This document shows positions 1 to 4,705 of a stretch of DNA of 4,705 nt, one piece after another. This stretch comes from a virus (Duplodnaviria > Heunggongvirae > Uroviricota > Caudoviricetes): IMG/VR virus record IMGVR_UViG_2529292834_000011, one strand, 5' to 3'. Position 1 is the stretch's first letter. Every line of letters starts with the position of its first letter. The position numbers and the translations under genes are program-made. Below the pieces are notes generated by a model that did no database searches, was not told the DNA's origin, and worked only from the letters and a program-made list of their open reading frames with translations.

Positions 1-1
1 T

Positions 2-349
2 GGAATAACCCAGGCTTATTTTGAGTTGGGTATGACGTTCCCAGAACTGTATGACGACAGCCATCCGGAAGCCCTGGCTCGCAATACCCAGAAAATTTTC
101 CGCTGGATAGAGAAAGACACCCCTGATGCAGTTGAAAAAATTCAGGCGTTGTTACCAGCGATCGAAAAGGCAATGCCACCTTTGCTGGTGGCCAGAATGC
201 GCAGCCACAGTTCAGCTTATTTTCGGGAGCTGGTGGAGACGCGGGAGCGACTGGTGAGAGACGCTGATGATTTTGTCGCAGTGGCAATCGCCGGTTTCAA
301 TCAGATGAACCGTGGTGGCCCGGCAGGAAATGCTGTGGCAGTGCATTGA
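2..349 (+). CDS. 3' portion of a prophage early-region protein; N-terminus lies upstream of the window (cII-position gene, possibly YdaT-like)
   Basis: The reading frame is open from position 2 with no stop until TGA at 347-349, so the ATG at 26 is probably internal. It lies directly upstream of the replication-initiator gene, the position cII occupies in lambdoid phages. The family name is recalled, not verified. Confidence 0.6.
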   Translation, partial: GITQAYFELGMTFPELYDDSHPEALARNTQKIFRWIEKDTPDAVEKIQALLPAIEKAMPPLLVARMRSHSSAYFRELVETRERLVRDADDFVAVAIAGFNQMNRGGPAGNAVAVH

Positions 350-420
350 GTGATAATAGCCATATCGAATCACTTCCGGCAACTCGTGAGTAAAAAGATT
401 CGGTATCAGAAGAGGTGAGT

Positions 421-1491
421 ATGGCTAACGCCTGGCTCAGATTATGGCATGACATGCCAAATGACCCTAAGTGGCGAACAATTGCCAGGGTGTCAGGGCA
501 GTCAATTGCAACAGTGATGGCAGTGTATATCCACCTCCTGGTGAGCGCGTCACGAAATGTCACGCGAGGTCACATTGATGTCACGACAGAAGATTTGGCA
601 AGTGCGCTCGACGTGACAGAAGAGGTAATTGATTCAATTTTGCAGACGATGCAGGGGCGGGTACTTGATGGTGATTTAATCACTGGATGGGAAAAACGCC
701 AGGTGCTTAAAGAGGACAACGGCAATATTTCGCAAACCGCAAAATCTCCTGCAGAGCGCAAGAGGGCGCAGCGAGAGAGGGAAAGAAAGCGGGAACAAAA
801 TGGCGATTGTCACGGCGCGTCACGAAATGTCACGCACATGTCACGACGAGTCACGACAGATAAAGATACAGATAAAGATACAGATCAAGAAGATCAAAAC
901 ACTATGGTCCATGGCGTAAAAAACGCCACGAACCAGGCAGGGGATGTTCAGACCGTCAATCTTGGTCAGCCAGCAGGCACGACACCGGAAGCCGATTCAG
1001 CGTATGCGCTGAAAGCCGATTCGGGCGCTGTGCAGCAGGTGATGACCGCAAGGCCGGAGCAATCACACCAACTGCAGCAGCCTGAAGCCGATTCCGCCAT
1101 TCAGCGGGAAGCCGATCGGGTAGTCACGGAAAACACCGGGCAGCCTGTGAGACGAGTGGATTATCCGGATGTGTTCGAACAGGTCTGGCGGGAATACCCG
1201 TTGCGTGCTGGGGCAAACCCGAAGAAATCCGCTTTCAGTGCCTGGAAGGCCAGATTACGCGAGGGGGTGTCACCAGAGGCCATGCTGGATGGCGTGAGGC
1301 GTTACGCAAGATACCTTGCGGCTACCGGGAAAACGGGAACGGAATTTGTTCAGCGAGCGACGACGTTTTTTGGACCGGACCGGAATTTTGAAAACCCCTG
1401 GCTGCTCCCGGTAAGCGGCACGAACAACCAGCGTTGTGTGAATCATATTTCTGAACCGGATACCGAAATTCCACCGGGCTTCAGGGGGTAA
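421..1491 (+). CDS. phage replisome organizer / replication initiator (O-like), with embedded iterons
   Basis: ATG at 421 has a Shine-Dalgarno AAGAGGTG at 410-417 with a 5-nt spacer; the ORF track starts at GTG 415, which is too close to the SD. The N-terminus (ANAWLRLWHDMPNDPKWRTIA...) resembles the phage replisome-organizer N-terminal DNA-binding domain. A low-complexity acidic/polar linker (DKDTDKDTDQEDQ, Q/P/A-rich) is followed by a distinct C-terminal domain (FEQVWREYP...WKARL...YARYL...). Its own coding sequence contains iteron clusters, as in lambda O. Confidence 0.7.
   Translation: MANAWLRLWHDMPNDPKWRTIARVSGQSIATVMAVYIHLLVSASRNVTRGHIDVTTEDLASALDVTEEVIDSILQTMQGRVLDGDLITGWEKRQVLKEDNGNISQTAKSPAERKRAQRERERKREQNGDCHGASRNVTHMSRRVTTDKDTDKDTDQEDQNTMVHGVKNATNQAGDVQTVNLGQPAGTTPEADSAYALKADSGAVQQVMTARPEQSHQLQQPEADSAIQREADRVVTENTGQPVRRVDYPDVFEQVWREYPLRAGANPKKSAFSAWKARLREGVSPEAMLDGVRRYARYLAATGKTGTEFVQRATTFFGPDRNFENPWLLPVSGTNNQRCVNHISEPDTEIPPGFRG
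545..590. repeat. iteron cluster A: four GTCAC(G/A) hexamers at 10-11 bp phasing
   Basis: Hexamers at 549-554, 559-564, 569-574 (GTCACA) and 580-585. The 21-bp block 545-565 is identical to 815-835, and both clusters end in GTCACGACAGA. Confidence 0.65.
805..860. repeat. iteron cluster B: five GTCACG hexamers at 10-11 bp phasing
   Basis: Hexamers at 809-814, 819-824, 829-834, 840-845 and 850-855. Spacing matches one helical turn, and the cluster is followed immediately by an AT/purine-rich tract. Confidence 0.65.
857..900. repeat. AT-rich, purine-biased tract with 12-bp tandem repeat (CAGATAAAGATA x2 plus a degenerate third copy)
   Basis: Positions 857-868 and 869-880 are identical, followed by cagatcaagaagatcaaaac. 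It sits directly 3' of iteron cluster B and encodes the DKDTDKDTDQEDQ linker of the initiator. Confidence 0.6.
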
Positions 1492-1531
1492 GTGTTGATT
1501 TCTGGTCATGAGGTAATTTTCAGGAGGACTT

Positions 1532-1954
1532 GTGGCAAAAGTTTTTACACAAGAAGAGCGGGAAAAAATTAAAGGGCAGGTTGTTGAACTCGTACGCCAG
1601 AGTGGGCGCGAGACGTTACGACAACTGGAAACTAAAACTGGGGCAACAAGATATCTGATGAGCGTTCTGGCCAGAGAGCTGGTTGCCAGTGGCGATGTAT
1701 ACAACTCTGGTTACGGGTTATTCCCGTCTGAACAGGCGCGTAAGGACTGGCAAAATGCCCGTAAAAAGCTCTCAAGGGCAAAGCTGAAGAAACCATCTGC
1801 GGTTGATCCGGACCTTATCTGGTCATTACCTGACGGAGAAATACGTCGCTACGACAGGCGTCAGAACATAATCTGTCGCGAGTGCCGGAAGAGTGAGGTT
1901 ATGCAGCGAGTGCTGGCGTTTTATCAGGGTAATTTTCAGGAGGTGATGGCGTGA
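1532..1954 (+). CDS. hypothetical prophage protein, possible winged-helix DNA-binding fold
   Basis: GTG start at 1532 with SD CAGGAGGA at 1521-1528; 140 aa ending at TGA 1952-1954. No Walker A motif, so it is not a DnaC/P-type helicase loader despite occupying that position. Confidence 0.6.
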   Translation: MAKVFTQEEREKIKGQVVELVRQSGRETLRQLETKTGATRYLMSVLARELVASGDVYNSGYGLFPSEQARKDWQNARKKLSRAKLKKPSAVDPDLIWSLPDGEIRRYDRRQNIICRECRKSEVMQRVLAFYQGNFQEVMA

Positions 1955-2246
1955 GAGTGAGAGTCTATATCGCCGGTCCAATGACCGGGTATAAAAATTT
2001 CAACCGTGAGGCGTTTCACAATGCGGAAGAGGAACTGAAACGGGAAGGGCATACCGTTTTAAATCCGGCTGTGCTTCCGGATGGGCTGACACAGCCGCAC
2101 TACATGGATATTGCATGGCAATGATTCGTTGTGTGGATGCGATTTACATGCTGAAAGGCTGGCAGCGGTCAGCAGGTGCTAAGGCAGAACTGGCGCTGGC
2201 GGAGAAACTGGGGCATGCAGTTATTTTCCAGGAGGAGGTACAGTGA
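1951..2246 (+). pseudogene. DUF4406 / nucleoside 2-deoxyribosyltransferase-like gene, split by an apparent 1-nt frameshift
   Basis: The frame from GTG 1951 encodes MRVRVYIAGPMTGYKNF...HTVLNPAVLPDGL...YMDIAWQ and stops at TGA 2122-2124. A second frame (2115/2121 to TGA 2244-2246) encodes MAMIRCVDAIYMLKGWQRSAGAKAELALAEKLGHAVIF. Together they make one DUF4406-like domain (YIAGP...NP...CDAIYML.GW) if a single base is restored near 2113-2118. SD GGAGGTGA at 1940-1947. Confidence 0.5.
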
Positions 2247-2518
2247 ATATCGACGCAACAATGACGATTGGTACGGCCCTCAATACGGGGCTGGCGCTTC
2301 TTGGTTGGTGCTACATCATGTTCTGCTCATGGCGGTGGCTGTCACTGATGTTACTGAAAGAATGGAATAAACGCTGTAAACAGACGCAGCGGCAGAAGGC
2401 AATGAATGCGTTTTTTGAGACCTTCGATATTGACAGTATAGAACCAGGAGAGCCAGCTCGCGTGATTAGCAGAGGTGACGTTGTAATTCTTGTATACCGG
2501 AGTGAAGAGAAAGCATAA
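2243..2518 (+). CDS. small single-pass membrane protein, function unknown
   Basis: GTG at 2243 overlaps the preceding stop (GTGA), with SD GGAGGAGG at 2231-2238. It has an N-terminal hydrophobic helix (TIGTALNTGLALLGWCYIMFCSW) and a basic, charged C-terminus. Confidence 0.5.
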   Translation: MNIDATMTIGTALNTGLALLGWCYIMFCSWRWLSLMLLKEWNKRCKQTQRQKAMNAFFETFDIDSIEPGEPARVISRGDVVILVYRSEEKA

Positions 2519-2604
2519 TCCAAATCTGAATAATTAAATCCAGCACTGTAAATAAAATTTAATCCTTAACCGGAGGGATTTCTGCACCCTCAGAACATCA
2601 GGAG

Positions 2605-2622
2605 GCCGCCCGAAAGGGCGGT
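2605..2622. other. GC-rich hairpin (7-bp stem with GAAA tetraloop) at the left edge of the AT-rich island, immediately 5' of the next gene's RBS
   Basis: Positions 2605-2611 GCCGCCC pair with 2616-2622 GGGCGGT (one G-U pair), loop GAAA 2612-2615. No U-tract follows on either strand, so it is not a canonical intrinsic terminator. Confidence 0.35.
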
Positions 2623-2632
2623 GGAGATAATA

Positions 2633-2887
2633 ATGGAAATAACTAAAGAACGATTATTGGAAATAGCAAATCTTAGTGAAAGGGCATTAAGTGATGGGAG
2701 GATTATTTCTCCTGATGCTTATGAATCAGTTACAAGTATAGAAATAATAACGATGGCCAGGATGCTTCTTGGTTGCCTCAAAAAAGAATATAAAAAAAAG
2801 GTGGATAGCAATGCTAATATATATGATATTTTGGACAGTTGGGGGGCTTGGGCTGCAGCTGGAAATAGTTCTATCAACTGGCAGTAA
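2633..2887 (+). CDS. hypothetical protein; possibly the N-terminal part of a gene interrupted by an in-frame TAA
   Basis: ATG at 2633 with SD GGAG at 2623-2626 and a 6-nt spacer. AT-rich codon usage. The frame ends at TAA 2885-2887 and continues in the same frame into the next ORF. Confidence 0.45.
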   Translation: MEITKERLLEIANLSERALSDGRIISPDAYESVTSIEIITMARMLLGCLKKEYKKKVDSNANIYDILDSWGAWAAAGNSSINWQ

Positions 2888-3157
2888 GTGGCTGATAAAT
2901 ATAAAGATGTAGTACCTCATGGTAAGAAATTACGCCGTCAGTGTGGCAACGATGAAGGTCGTATGATTGATACCTGCATGTTGAAGCTTAAACAATATAG
3001 AATAGATGACTATGAGTTAATTATCGCTCATTTTGTTATAGGTATATCTTTGCGTACAATAGCACGAAGGTACAAATGTTCAGATGGAACAATAAGAAAG
3101 AATATACAACTTACAATGGGAGTATTGTTAGGATTGTCTTTTTATGTGCAATTATAG
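2888..3157 (+). CDS. helix-turn-helix protein with a sigma-70 region-4-like motif; may be the C-terminal part of the preceding ORF
   Basis: GTG at 2888 immediately follows TAA in the same frame, with no convincing SD. The motif YELIIAHFVIGISLRTIARRYKCSDGTIRKNI matches the sigma-70 region-4 / LuxR-type HTH pattern, followed by a hydrophobic tail. Confidence 0.45.
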   Translation: MADKYKDVVPHGKKLRRQCGNDEGRMIDTCMLKLKQYRIDDYELIIAHFVIGISLRTIARRYKCSDGTIRKNIQLTMGVLLGLSFYVQL

Positions 3158-3162
3158 ATATA

Positions 3163-3642
3163 TCACATGAGCCTTGTTATGTCCTTTAGACGCGACCAGG
3201 TAGTATAAAATTTTTTAAATGTAATAAGCAGGAAAAAAATTCCCACTTGGAGTAATAGTTGGGCATATGTGTGCTCGTCGGCATCTTTTACTAGTGGGAA
3301 TTTAAACTTTAGTGTATCAGGGAAAAATAATAAAATGATAAAAATAATACAAACTGATAGTAACCATCCCATAGTGGAGTGCATTTCTTCGGTCAGTTTT
3401 TTCAAATAACCAGTTTTTCCTATATTTCTAATTAGCGTATTATCTCTAGCTGAAGCAATCAAGGTAAGCGAACCTAAAACAAAGCCAAATAATATCCCAG
3501 AAAATGTAGAAACGGCCGAAGCGATTGGCTGAATTTGTGCAAAATTTAGCTTTGCAGAAAGAGGCCATGCGATGATACAAAAAACAACAGAGGCTAAATT
3601 ATAACCATAACTGTACAAAGTTATCAATTTCCCCTTTTTCAT
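3163..3642 (-). CDS. small integral membrane protein with four predicted transmembrane helices; candidate effector of a two-gene module
   Basis: ATG (revcomp of 3640-3642) is preceded by SD GGAG (3653-3650) with a 7-nt spacer, 15 nt after the upstream gene's TAA. Four hydrophobic segments of about 17-25 aa (approx. residues 16-30, 39-63, 90-107, 126-142). Confidence 0.6.
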   Translation of the reverse strand: MKKGKLITLYSYGYNLASVVFCIIAWPLSAKLNFAQIQPIASAVSTFSGILFGFVLGSLTLIASARDNTLIRNIGKTGYLKKLTEEMHSTMGWLLSVCIIFIILLFFPDTLKFKFPLVKDADEHTYAQLLLQVGIFFLLITFKKFYTTWSRLKDITRLM

Positions 3643-3657
3643 ACCATCGCTCCAAAA

Positions 3658-4407
3658 TTAATCAACTCTTTGATTGGCTACTCCAAAGTATGCCTTCAAT
3701 TCATCATCTTTACTATCTTTTGCAAGAGTTAAGGCGCTCCAAATGCTGCCAACTAATGGATACCTACCTCCAAGTTCAACATCTGTGTAGTAGACTAATT
3801 TGTCTGCTACAAGATCGATAGGATGCTGTACACCGGTCTCAATGTCTTGGGTTTCTAGTTTAAGTTTTTCAACCTCAAAAGTCTCTAGTGTTTCTTTAAA
3901 GGCTCTTTTTAGTTGAGAACCTAGATAGCGAGATTCAGGATCTTCAGAACGACTATCCCCACGTAATGTAAGATTTACTTTGGCAGAATTAGTACCATTT
4001 AGAGTGGCTATCAATGCATTGTTGAAGTTATGTTCAACATCCTCATATAGTTGCACATTCTTTGGCCGAGCGATACCGATTTCTAGAGTTTTGATTCGAA
4101 CTTCATTACGCATCAACCACTTTAAACTACTGGTCTGAATGATGGGATTAACAGTTGTATTTTGTGAACTGTTGGAAAGATATTTACTTAATAACACCCA
4201 GCCATAACAGAGTCTGTTTCGTTGAATTATTAAAACTGAGTCTTGGGTATAAAAATGAAAATAAGCTTTTTCTAATAAGTTTTCATTGATTTCAAGTTTA
4301 ATTTCTCTTTCTTCACCTCCGGCTACAGCAACATGAGGGAGATTATTGGTTCTGTGTTTTCCTATAACTCCCCTGAAACCATAGTCGGTTCTTTCCATGA
4401 AGCGCAT
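3658..4407 (-). CDS. soluble protein of unrecognised family, upstream gene of the two-gene module; 5' end probably truncated or displaced by IS1
   Basis: The open frame runs from the IS1 junction to TAA (revcomp of 3658-3660). The first native ATG (4407-4405) has no usable SD (AGGAAA is 15 nt away), and the frame stays open upstream into the IS1 end. The TTG start at 4446 on the ORF track is IS1-derived. No catalytic motif recognised. Confidence 0.5.
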   Translation of the reverse strand: MRFMERTDYGFRGVIGKHRTNNLPHVAVAGGEEREIKLEINENLLEKAYFHFYTQDSVLIIQRNRLCYGWVLLSKYLSNSSQNTTVNPIIQTSSLKWLMRNEVRIKTLEIGIARPKNVQLYEDVEHNFNNALIATLNGTNSAKVNLTLRGDSRSEDPESRYLGSQLKRAFKETLETFEVEKLKLETQDIETGVQHPIDLVADKLVYYTDVELGGRYPLVGSIWSALTLAKDSKDDELKAYFGVANQRVD

Positions 4408-4432
4408 TTCAACTAGTTTATTTCCTATTTTA

Positions 4433-4455
4433 GGTGATGCTGCCAACTTACTGAT
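4433..4455 (+). repeat. IS1 left terminal inverted repeat (IRL)
   Basis: GGTGATGCTGCCAACTTACTGAT, the characteristic 23-bp IS1 terminal repeat. Confidence 0.9.
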
Positions 4456-4487
4456 TTAGTGTATGATGGTGTTTTTGAGGTGCTCCA

Positions 4488-4705
4488 GTGGCTTCTGTTT
4501 CTATCAGCTGTCCCTCCTGTTCAGCTACTGACGGGGTGGTGCGTAACGGCAAAAGCACTGCCGGACATCAGCGCTATCTCTGCTCTCACTGCCGTAAAAC
4601 ATGGCAACTGCAGTTCACTTACACCGCTTCTCAACCCGGTACGCACCAGAAAATCATTGATATGGCCATGAATGGCGTTGGATGCCGGGCAACTGCCCGC
4701 ATTAT
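4488..4705 (+). CDS. insA: IS1 InsA transposition regulator, 5' partial
   Basis: GTG at 4488 begins (M)[71 protein letters not shown], the InsA zinc-finger N-terminus. The frame runs off the window. The ORF-track entry 4459..4671 is a different, spurious frame. Confidence 0.9.

What the first reader, a model, noticed from the sequence alone, without database searches (positions are those of the whole stretch)
4396..4460. IS1 left end abuts and probably truncates the 5' end of the module's upstream gene; possible IS-derived hybrid promoter
IS1 begins at 4433, only 25 bp upstream of the first native ATG (4407-4405) of the - strand gene. That ATG lacks a usable SD and the frame stays open up to the junction, so IS1 most likely landed inside the gene, leaving a 5'-truncated copy, or at least cut it off from its promoter. 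Read outward on the - strand, the IRL carries TTGGCA (revcomp of 4441-4446), a near-consensus -35 that could form a hybrid promoter with AT-rich host sequence (TAAAAT, TAAACT). The downstream membrane gene could therefore still be expressed, or mis-expressed.
Basis: partly seen in the sequence, partly recalled or inferred. Interest (0 to 1): 0.6.

Follow-up and report, generated by a model that had tools for sequence, protein, structure and literature searches.

The report
IS1 truncates a prophage rexA-like gene
A copy of the common jumping gene IS1 has landed inside codon 47 of a 304-codon prophage gene, which appears to be the RexA-like half of a two-gene phage-exclusion module, so the gene is almost certainly dead; this is an ordinary insertional knockout, and the suggested new promoter is poorly supported.

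Summary
IS1 starts at 4433, and the - strand ORF stays open across the junction. The ATGs at 4407 and 4398 have no usable ribosome-binding site.

The main interpretation is right. Nineteen complete E. coli genomes and a near-identical sister draft carry the same prophage without IS1. They match the window base for base up to 4432. In them the gene (Pfam DUF6731) is 915 nt / 304 aa and starts 140 nt beyond the junction. IS1 therefore splits codon 47. Homologues in many bacteria are also about 304 aa, with a conserved N-terminus, so 4407 and 4398 are internal Met56 and Met59.

The hybrid-promoter idea is weak. TTGGCA is a real, documented outward -35 of IS1. However, TAAAAT lies 8 nt from it and TAAACT 20 nt. 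The only hexamer at 16-18 nt is AATAAA.

The window is a whole 4705-bp draft contig (E. coli 2741950) that ends inside IS1. The right end, the target duplication and the fate of the 5' fragment could not be checked.

Interest is low.

The parts
4433..4705 (+). Left 273 bp of an IS1 element. The contig ends inside it. insA starts at GTG 4488 and runs off the end.
   Evidence: 271/273 identical to K-12 IS1A from its first base. The gene call hits Zn_ribbon_InsA and HTH_Tnp_IS1. IS1's own promoter-like site CTGCCA-16-TATGAT lies at 4440-4467 on the + strand and points away from the module.
4433..4455 (+). IS1 left terminal inverted repeat (IRL), GGTGATGCTGCCAACTTACTGAT.
   Evidence: Sequence. Identical to the IRL of K-12 IS1A. 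The 23-bp length of the repeat is from my own knowledge of IS1.
4441..4446 (-). Outward-facing -35-like hexamer TTGGCA (5/6 match to TTGACA) inside the IRL, 8 nt from the IS1 tip. The same six bases supply the in-frame TTG that opens the 262-aa fusion ORF.
   Evidence: The literature states that IS1 carries an outward -35 box in its inverted repeat (PMC8764528).
4424..4432 (.). Target-site bases CCTATTTTA next to the IRL. This is the expected left copy of a 9-bp IS1 target duplication. The duplication itself was not verified.
   Evidence: Sequence. The IS1-free allele reads CCTATTTTA|CGTACAG. The K-12 yrhA::IS1 control shows a 9-bp duplication, GACATTAAA.
3658..4432 (-). The 3' 775 nt of the DUF6731 (RexA-fold) gene: the third base of codon 47, codons 48-304 and the stop. 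The first 140 nt are missing from the window.
   Evidence: Ungapped alignment to IS1-free alleles, where the CDS is 915 nt. Pfam DUF6731 covers profile positions 75-269 here and 1-269 in the intact protein.
4396..4407 (-). Two internal methionine codons, Met56 (4407-4405) and Met59 (4398-4396) of the intact protein. They are not native starts.
   Evidence: Translation of the intact and truncated alleles. Alignment of 26 homologues. No SD.
3163..3642 (-). Downstream 159-aa membrane protein with about four hydrophobic segments, the RexB-like partner. It starts 15 nt after the DUF6731 stop and has its own GGAG SD.
   Evidence: PADLOC RexB E=0.0015. Six of 8 homologues hit the RexB HMM, best E=9.5e-5. 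A homologue lies immediately downstream of DUF6731 in 8 of 8 loci from other species.

Best explanation
An IS1 element sits inside codon 47 (CG|T) of a 304-codon DUF6731 gene in a lambdoid prophage of E. coli 2741950. The window keeps only codons 48-304. The native start codon, ribosome-binding site, promoter region and the first 140 nt are either displaced to the far side of IS1 or lost.

The missing 47 residues form the first long beta-strand and the first helices of the protein, so any product would probably not fold. No product is likely anyway. The in-frame starts that remain (TTG in the IS1 repeat, Met56, Met59) lack ribosome-binding sites.

IS1 faces away from the module, so its own promoter does not read into it. 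The outward -35 in the IS1 end has no properly spaced -10 in the flank. The upstream gene is therefore a null allele. The downstream membrane gene has probably lost most of its transcription; this step is inferred.

The module itself is best read as a RexA/RexB-like phage-exclusion pair, a cytoplasmic RexA-fold protein plus a small 4-TM partner. The practical consequence is probably loss of that prophage-encoded defence.

Shown: the junction, the truncation, the conservation of the lost part and the promoter spacing. Inferred: loss of function, polarity and the Rex-like mechanism.
For: - **Collinearity with IS1-free alleles.** Window 1-4432 aligns without gaps to an IS1-free complete genome with 4 mismatches. 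It aligns to a sister draft contig with 2 mismatches within 1-4432. Identity ends exactly at the first IS1 base.
- **Gene length.** All 19 complete genomes with this locus match the window without IS1. The three I inspected, plus two draft contigs, annotate a 915-nt gene starting 140 nt beyond the junction. None of 5426 complete genomes has the IS1 junction.
- **Homologues.** Of the 42 homologues found, nearly all are 302-306 aa and cover 98-100% of the query. They come from Klebsiella, Rahnella, Vibrio, Photobacterium, Shewanella, Endozoicomonas and Marinobacterium.
- **Conserved N-terminus.** D9 and F10 are invariant. K4, F8, C13 and V46 are at least 90% conserved.
- **Pfam coverage.** The match drops from profile positions 1-269 to 75-269.
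- **Structure.** In the AlphaFold model (pLDDT 74.7) residues 3-17 are a strand and 27-45 are helices, with block pLDDT 81-94.
- **Translation signals.** The remaining in-frame starts have no usable SD.
- **Promoter.** Spacing analysis and the promoter scan find no acceptable - strand promoter at the junction. A full IS1 copy has no consensus promoter reading out through the IRL.
Against: - The window is an entire draft contig that ends inside IS1. The IS1 right end, the 9-bp duplication and the 5' gene fragment were never seen. A simple insertion cannot be told apart from an IS1-mediated deletion or inversion.
- Predicted N-terminal fragment ORFs for duplications of 7-14 bp are absent from the protein collection. 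This is uninformative rather than negative.
- No expression data exist. AATAAA at 18 nt from TTGGCA gives 9 of 12 matches overall and could support weak transcription.
- The membrane gene has its own SD and could be translated from any read-through transcript.
- The Rex-like assignment rests on a predicted structure of moderate confidence and on weak profile hits. Sequence profiles do not link DUF6731 to RexA. Foldseek did not list RexA among its 50 best hits.
Confidence: 0.85

Rival explanations
1. Functional hybrid promoter. The outward TTGGCA in the IS1 inverted repeat combines with AT-rich flank sequence to transcribe the truncated gene and, more importantly, the downstream RexB-like membrane gene. 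That gene would then be expressed, or mis-expressed, without its partner.
For: TTGGCA matches the -35 consensus at 5 of 6 positions and lies 8 nt from the IS1 tip. IS1 hybrid promoters are documented (PMC8764528; Prentki 1986 and the acrEF and blaTEM examples listed in PMC9330008). The flank is AT-rich. AATAAA at 18 nt gives 9 of 12 matches in all. The membrane gene keeps its own SD.
Against: TAAAAT is at spacer 8 and TAAACT at spacer 20. The hexamers at 16-18 nt (GAAATA, AAATAA, AATAAA) all lack the -7 T, and none has an extended TG. The scanner, which requires A2 and T6, reports nothing on the - strand at the junction. The cited study stresses that activation occurs only when the -10 is optimally placed. 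It saw decreased transcription at one of three IS1 insertions and no change at another (PMC8764528).
Confidence: 0.15
2. IS1-mediated adjacent deletion or inversion rather than a simple insertion. The 5' 140 nt of the gene, and possibly hokD and the late-gene side of the prophage, are gone or relocated, and no target duplication exists.
For: The contig stops inside IS1, so nothing beyond it is known. IS1 is known to generate adjacent deletions that lack direct repeats (PMC9330008, section 5.2.1). The prophage shows other decay: a Q85stop unique to this strain and a frameshifted DUF4406 gene. The predicted N-terminal fragment ORFs were not found.
Against: Draft contigs routinely break in multicopy IS1, so the break says nothing in itself. 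The junction is at the exact IS1 terminus, next to an AT-rich 9-mer, which fits a primary insertion equally well. Short ORFs at contig edges are rarely recorded, so one search carries no weight.
Confidence: 0.2
3. The gene really starts at ATG 4407 (or 4398), and IS1 only separated it from its promoter.
For: 4407 is the first ATG in host sequence, and nothing upstream of 4432 can be read in this window.
Against: The IS1-free alleles I inspected annotate a 304-aa protein that starts 140 nt further upstream. Nearly all homologues from distant genera are 302-306 aa with a conserved N-terminal motif. Pfam profile positions 1-74 are matched only by the intact form. ATG 4407 has no SD.
Confidence: 0.01
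4. Assembly artefact. The IS1 sequence was joined to this prophage contig by mis-assembly of a repeat, and the gene is intact in the real genome.
For: The source is a 2013 short-read draft, and the contig ends in a multicopy repeat.
Against: The join falls exactly at the first base of the IS1 inverted repeat, not inside shared sequence. A chimera needs shared sequence, and the host side has none in common with IS1. The 262-aa fusion ORF was deposited by the submitters as ENA83274.1.
Confidence: 0.03

Closest known systems
IS1 insertional inactivation and polarity (classic IS1 insertions such as those in gal and lac, and K-12 yrhA::IS1)
   Same: It has the same element (271/273 identical to K-12 IS1A), an insertion at its exact terminus into AT-rich DNA, disruption of a reading frame, and expected polarity on the distal gene of the operon. 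Polarity is from general knowledge of IS1 and was not tested here.
   Different: Only the left junction is visible. The 9-bp duplication seen at K-12 yrhA::IS1 could not be verified here. The target is a prophage accessory gene that has not been characterised before.
IS1 fusion (hybrid) promoters (Prentki et al. 1986 blaTEM; acrEF activation; afaA in ST131, PMC8764528)
   Same: The same outward -35 box in the IS1 inverted repeat faces the flanking gene.
   Different: In the documented cases a good -10 sits at the correct distance, and the insertion lies upstream of an intact gene. Here the insertion is inside the gene. The good -10-like hexamers are 8 and 20 nt away.
Bacteriophage lambda RexA/RexB exclusion system
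   Different: There is no detectable sequence relationship to RexA. The module does not lie in the immunity region next to cI. It sits between a Q-like antiterminator gene and hokD, convergent with the Q-like gene. No exclusion phenotype is known. Related modules also occur outside prophages, in apparent defence islands.
Pfam DUF6731 (PF20505)
   Same: The intact allele matches above the gathering score over profile positions 1-269.
   Different: The window copy lacks the part matching profile positions 1-74. The family has no assigned function, and no paper in the searched library mentions it.

Membership tests
IS1 insertion sequence | Terminal inverted repeat GGTGATGCTGCCAACTTACTGAT at the element's end | tested here: met
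   Window 4433-4455 is identical to the K-12 IS1A IRL. Overall identity is 271/273 over 4433-4705.
IS1 insertion sequence | insA reading frame (zinc ribbon plus HTH) directly inside the IRL | tested here: met
   The gene call at window 4488-4705 hits PF03811 Zn_ribbon_InsA and PF12759 HTH_Tnp_IS1.
IS1 insertion sequence | Complete 768-bp element with insB and a right inverted repeat | not testable with these tools
   The window is the whole contig and ends 273 bp into IS1.
IS1 insertion sequence | 8-9 bp direct duplication of the target site | not testable with these tools
   The right junction is absent from the window. Pattern scans of the GTDB representatives (left junction) and of IMG/VR (both junctions) found nothing. 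Predicted fragment ORFs are not in the protein collection.
IS1 hybrid (fusion) promoter | Outward -35 hexamer in the inverted repeat | tested here: met
   TTGGCA at 4446-4441 on the - strand, a 5/6 match. Documented for IS1 (PMC8764528).
IS1 hybrid (fusion) promoter | -10 hexamer in the flank at 16-18 nt with the conserved A at position 2 and T at position 6 | tested here: not met
   Spacers 16, 17 and 18 give GAAATA, AAATAA and AATAAA. TAAAAT is at 8 nt and TAAACT at 20 nt. The scanner finds none.
IS1 hybrid (fusion) promoter | Transcript starting just outside the IS end | not testable with these tools
   No transcript data are available.
Pfam DUF6731 (PF20505) | HMM score above the gathering threshold (27 bits) | tested here: met
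   The intact allele scores 47.6 bits and the window's truncated ORF 40 bits. All 26 aligned homologues match.
Pfam DUF6731 (PF20505) | Full-length domain (profile from position 1) | tested here: not met
   The window copy matches only profile positions 75-269. The intact allele matches 1-269.
Lambda RexA/RexB exclusion system | Sequence membership of the upstream protein in the RexA family | tested here: not met
   PADLOC returns no family at E up to 10. hhalign against lambda RexA gives E 0.58. There is no Pfam hit other than DUF6731.
Lambda RexA/RexB exclusion system | RexA-type fold (split globular domain plus dimerisation domain, RdgC-like) | tested here: inconclusive
   [not shown]
Lambda RexA/RexB exclusion system | Small multi-pass membrane partner (RexB) encoded immediately downstream | tested here: inconclusive
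   Gene order, the 15-nt gap and the hydrophobic segments match, and the partner is present in 8 of 8 loci. The RexB HMM hits are weak: E 0.0015 here, best 9.5e-5, in 6 of 8 homologues. hhalign gives E 0.015-0.064.
Lambda RexA/RexB exclusion system | Location in the immunity region, co-transcribed with the cI repressor | tested here: not met
   In IS1-free alleles the module lies between a Q-like antiterminator gene and hokD, about 3.5 kb from the repressor/cro region.
Lambda RexA/RexB exclusion system | Exclusion of superinfecting phage through membrane depolarisation | not testable with these tools
   This needs experiments.

The most novel reading that the evidence does not exclude
The IS1 insertion uncouples the two halves of a previously unrecognised Rex-like module. 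The RexA-like gene is destroyed, while the RexB-like membrane gene is still transcribed at a low level from the IS1-flank junction or an internal promoter. This would mimic lambda's RexB-only expression from PLIT and give the lysogen a RexB-only phenotype rather than plain loss of function. The statement about PLIT is from my own knowledge.
Probability: 0.08. Interest if true: 0.45.

Novelty: new member of a known kind. Interest (0 to 1): 0.22.

Why it matters
For this strain it means one prophage accessory module, probably an anti-phage exclusion system, is inactivated. The GenBank 262-aa 'hypothetical protein' (ENA83274.1) is an IS1-fusion artefact of a 304-aa gene and should be annotated as a pseudogene.

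As biology it is a routine example of IS1-driven prophage decay. The same prophage also carries a strain-specific nonsense mutation in a Q-like gene.

The more useful by-product is the link between DUF6731 plus its invariably adjacent 4-TM partner and lambda RexA/RexB. If the intact cassette were confirmed by experiment, it would give a function to an uncharacterised family found in Proteobacteria and beyond. It would also widen the known range of Rex-like systems.

Tried and rejected
**Attempts to extend the sequence**
- I tried to find the IS1 right end and target duplication. The window proved to be the entire contig APXF01000115.1.
- No complete E. coli genome has the junction.
- Scans of the GTDB representatives for the left junction and of IMG/VR for both junctions were empty.
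- Exact look-up of six predicted N-terminal fragment ORFs (7-11 bp duplications, plus the 9-bp case read into an IRL-type end) found none.
- I could not search the other contigs of the same assembly.

**Leads that turned out to be uninformative**
- A BLAST hit at K-12 yrhA::IS1 appeared to extend 29 nt into the flank. It is only a chance 9-mer (GCATTTCAA) and not homology.
- Partial DUF6731 proteins exist in other draft assemblies (P0051-P0055). I checked whether they mark further IS insertions. The two contigs I examined simply end inside native gene sequence.

**Sequence and fold comparisons with Rex proteins**
- hhalign and PADLOC do not link DUF6731 to RexA.
- Pfam gives nothing for the membrane partner.

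**Literature**
- Searches for the exact IS1 -35 sequence returned only primer tables.
- The sigma-54 paper that came up does not mention IS1.
- Olliver 2005 is not held in the library.

**Promoters**
- The simple scan found no native promoter on the - strand upstream of the intact gene. The promoter that IS1 displaced therefore remains unidentified.

Full report
**1. What the window is**

The 4705-bp window is the complete contig APXF01000115.1 of the draft assembly GCA_000356225.2. The strain is Escherichia coli 2741950. The submitters annotated the ORF at issue as ENA83274.1, 'hypothetical protein EC2741950_1400', 262 aa.

The contig carries the early-right region of a lambdoid prophage. On the + strand these are:
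- a YdaT-family gene;
- a replication gene with GTCACG iteron-like repeats;
- DUF977, DUF4406 and DUF4752 genes;
- a Q-like antiterminator gene.

Next come two convergent - strand genes at 3658-4432 and 3163-3642, and then the left 273 bp of IS1, where the contig stops. Short-read contigs usually break in multicopy IS1, so the break itself carries no information.

**2. Check of the observation**

- Window 4433-4705 matches a K-12 IS1A copy from its first base at 271 of 273 positions. It encodes the InsA zinc-ribbon/HTH N-terminus.
- The nine bases to the left of IS1 are CCTATTTTA (4424-4432).
- ATG 4407-4405 lies 25 bases from the IS1 tip.
- The - strand frame stays open across the junction to a TTG at 4446-4444 inside the inverted repeat.
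- The remaining in-frame starts have no usable Shine-Dalgarno sequence. The AGGA before ATG 4407 ends 15 nt away. TTG 4446 and ATG 4398 have nothing.
- TTGGCA is the reverse complement of 4441-4446.

**3. Where the gene really starts**

The host part of the window (3100-4432) matches 19 of 5426 complete E. coli genomes at 99.3-99.8% identity, and all of them lack IS1 there.

In the three loci I inspected, the upstream gene is annotated 'DUF6731 family protein', 915 nt / 304 aa. Window 1-4432 aligns without a single gap to one of them, with 4 mismatches. It also aligns to a sister draft contig, APXE01000112.1, with only 2 mismatches.

Identity ends exactly at 4432:
- window: ...TTTCCTATTTTA|GGTGATGC
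- IS1-free: ...TTTCCTATTTTA|CGTACAGT

The intact start codon lies 140 nt beyond the junction. IS1 therefore splits codon 47: CG is lost and T is retained.

The intact N-terminus reads MASKRFFFDFYQCHTISTDTNAGVNSPEAVFSKIFESYSEGRDKTVR|KIGNKLVEMRFMERTDYGF. The ATGs at 4407 and 4398 are therefore internal Met56 and Met59.

**4. Whether the lost part matters**

- Of the 42 homologues found, nearly all are 302-306 aa and cover 98-100% of the query. They come from Klebsiella, Rahnella, Photobacterium, Vibrio, Shewanella, Endozoicomonas and Marinobacterium.
- In a 26-sequence alignment D9 and F10 are invariant. K4, F8, C13 and V46 are at least 90% conserved.
- Pfam DUF6731 matches profile positions 1-269 in the intact protein but only 75-269 in the window copy.
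- An AlphaFold model (mean pLDDT 74.7) places a long beta-strand at residues 3-17 and helices at 27-45, with block pLDDT 81-94.

Losing these elements removes an edge-to-core strand and the first helices of the N-terminal domain. A stable product is unlikely; this is an inference. With no ribosome-binding site at any remaining start, the copy is best called a pseudogene.

**5. The hybrid-promoter idea**

The literature confirms that IS1 carries an outward -35 box in its inverted repeat. It also shows that a hybrid promoter arises only when a -10 lies at the correct distance. In ST131 strains, three IS1 insertions gave three different outcomes: one raised transcription of the adjacent gene, one lowered it and one left it unchanged (PMC8764528). 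The original work is Prentki et al. 1986, cited in PMC9330008.

Here TTGGCA sits 8 nt from the IS1 tip.

| Candidate -10 | Spacer from TTGGCA | Comment |
|---|---|---|
| GAAATA | 16 nt | lacks the -7 T |
| AAATAA | 17 nt | lacks the -7 T |
| AATAAA | 18 nt | 4/6 match, lacks the -7 T |

The consensus scanner finds no - strand promoter at the junction. Its only hit there is IS1's own + strand promoter, which points away from the module.

A complete IS1 copy shows no consensus promoter reading out through the IRL. It does show a terminator-like hairpin on that strand about 125 nt inside the element, although the window's copy has one base change in the stem.

I therefore rate a functional hybrid promoter at about 15%. 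Even if it fired, only the membrane gene, which has its own GGAG, could be translated efficiently.

**6. What could not be settled**

The contig ends in IS1, so three things are unknown: the right end, the target duplication, and whether the 5' 140 nt and the hokD side of the prophage are still adjacent.
- No complete E. coli genome has the junction.
- Scans of the GTDB representatives and of IMG/VR were empty.
- Predicted N-terminal fragment ORFs were not in the protein collection.

A simple insertion with a 9-bp duplication is the default; K-12 yrhA::IS1 shows one. An IS1-mediated adjacent deletion remains possible, at about 20%.

**7. What the module is**

- **Partner gene.** The 159-aa downstream protein has about four hydrophobic segments. 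It is conserved immediately downstream of DUF6731 in Photobacterium (53% identity) and Endozoicomonas (39%). The same holds for all 8 species-representative loci found, including a Saprospiraceae MAG and Geomonas. In Endozoicomonas the pair sits among genes with AAA_15/AAA_21, HNH (faint), Mrr_cat and NERD domain hits, which looks like a defence island.
- **RexB signal.** The partner weakly matches the PADLOC RexB profile (E 0.0015). Six of 8 homologues match it, best E 9.5e-5. The hhalign alignment to lambda RexB is collinear but not significant.
- **Architecture.** Gene order, sizes and the 15-nt intergenic gap parallel rexA-rexB.
- **Against membership.** Sequence profiles do not connect DUF6731 to RexA. 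Foldseek did not list RexA among its 50 best hits. The module is not in the immunity region.

My reading is that it probably works like a Rex system, with a cytoplasmic partner gating a small membrane effector, but that it is not a demonstrable member of the RexA/RexB sequence families. No paper in the searched library mentions DUF6731.

**8. Verdict**

The finding is a real IS1 insertion that truncates a gene.

The event is strain-specific. It is absent from all complete genomes searched and from the near-identical sister draft. It sits in a prophage that also carries a strain-specific Q85stop in a Q-like gene and a frameshifted DUF4406 gene. This fits neutral prophage decay.

As an IS1 knockout it is ordinary, so interest is low. 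The Rex-like nature of the DUF6731 module is the more interesting by-product and deserves its own follow-up.

Noticed in passing
[not shown]
   Followed up: partly
window 2885 (Q-like antiterminator gene 2633-3157, + strand): A C>T change turns codon 85 (CAA, Gln) into TAA. It splits the 174-aa Q-like antiterminator into the 88- and 89-aa ORFs listed. The change is absent from both the IS1-free complete genome and the sister draft, so it is a second strain-specific inactivating mutation in this prophage.
   Followed up: partly
window 1951-2246 (+ strand): The DUF4406 gene is split into two overlapping ORFs (1951-2124 and 2115-2246). RefSeq marks the same gene 'frameshifted' in CP025856, and the sister draft has the same 57- and 41-aa split. 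This defect is older and shared within the lineage.
   Followed up: no
window 549-587 and 809-857 (inside the 415-1491 replication-gene ORF): Clusters of GTCACG-containing repeats with roughly 10-nt spacing (GTCACGAAATGTCACG...), plus a tandem ACAGATAAAGAT x2 at 856-879. They look like origin iterons embedded in the replication-initiator gene, as in lambda O.
   Followed up: no
window 4559-4573 (- strand); L005 1656-1670: In the K-12 IS1 copy the scanner finds a terminator-like hairpin with a T-run on the strand that reads toward the IRL, about 125 nt inside the element. The window's IS1 has one base change in the stem and is not called. This could add to the polarity of transcripts crossing IS1.
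   Followed up: no
L001 5474-6077 (beyond the window): In IS1-free alleles the DUF6731 start is followed by a 450-bp AT-rich spacer and a divergent hokD type I toxin locus. The simple scan found no consensus - strand promoter for the DUF6731 operon there.
   Followed up: partly
proteins P0051-P0055 (other E. coli draft assemblies); L012, L013: Several other draft genomes carry 'partial' DUF6731 proteins of 64, 187, 195 and 238 aa at contig ends. The two contigs I examined stop inside native gene sequence with no IS sequence. It remains open whether they mark further repeat insertions.
   Followed up: partly
window 3598-3627 (- strand): The best promoter-like match in the region (TTGATA-18-TATAAT, 11 of 12) lies just inside the membrane gene's coding sequence, downstream of its start codon. 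It is probably a chance match in AT-rich DNA and cannot express the full-length membrane protein.
   Followed up: no
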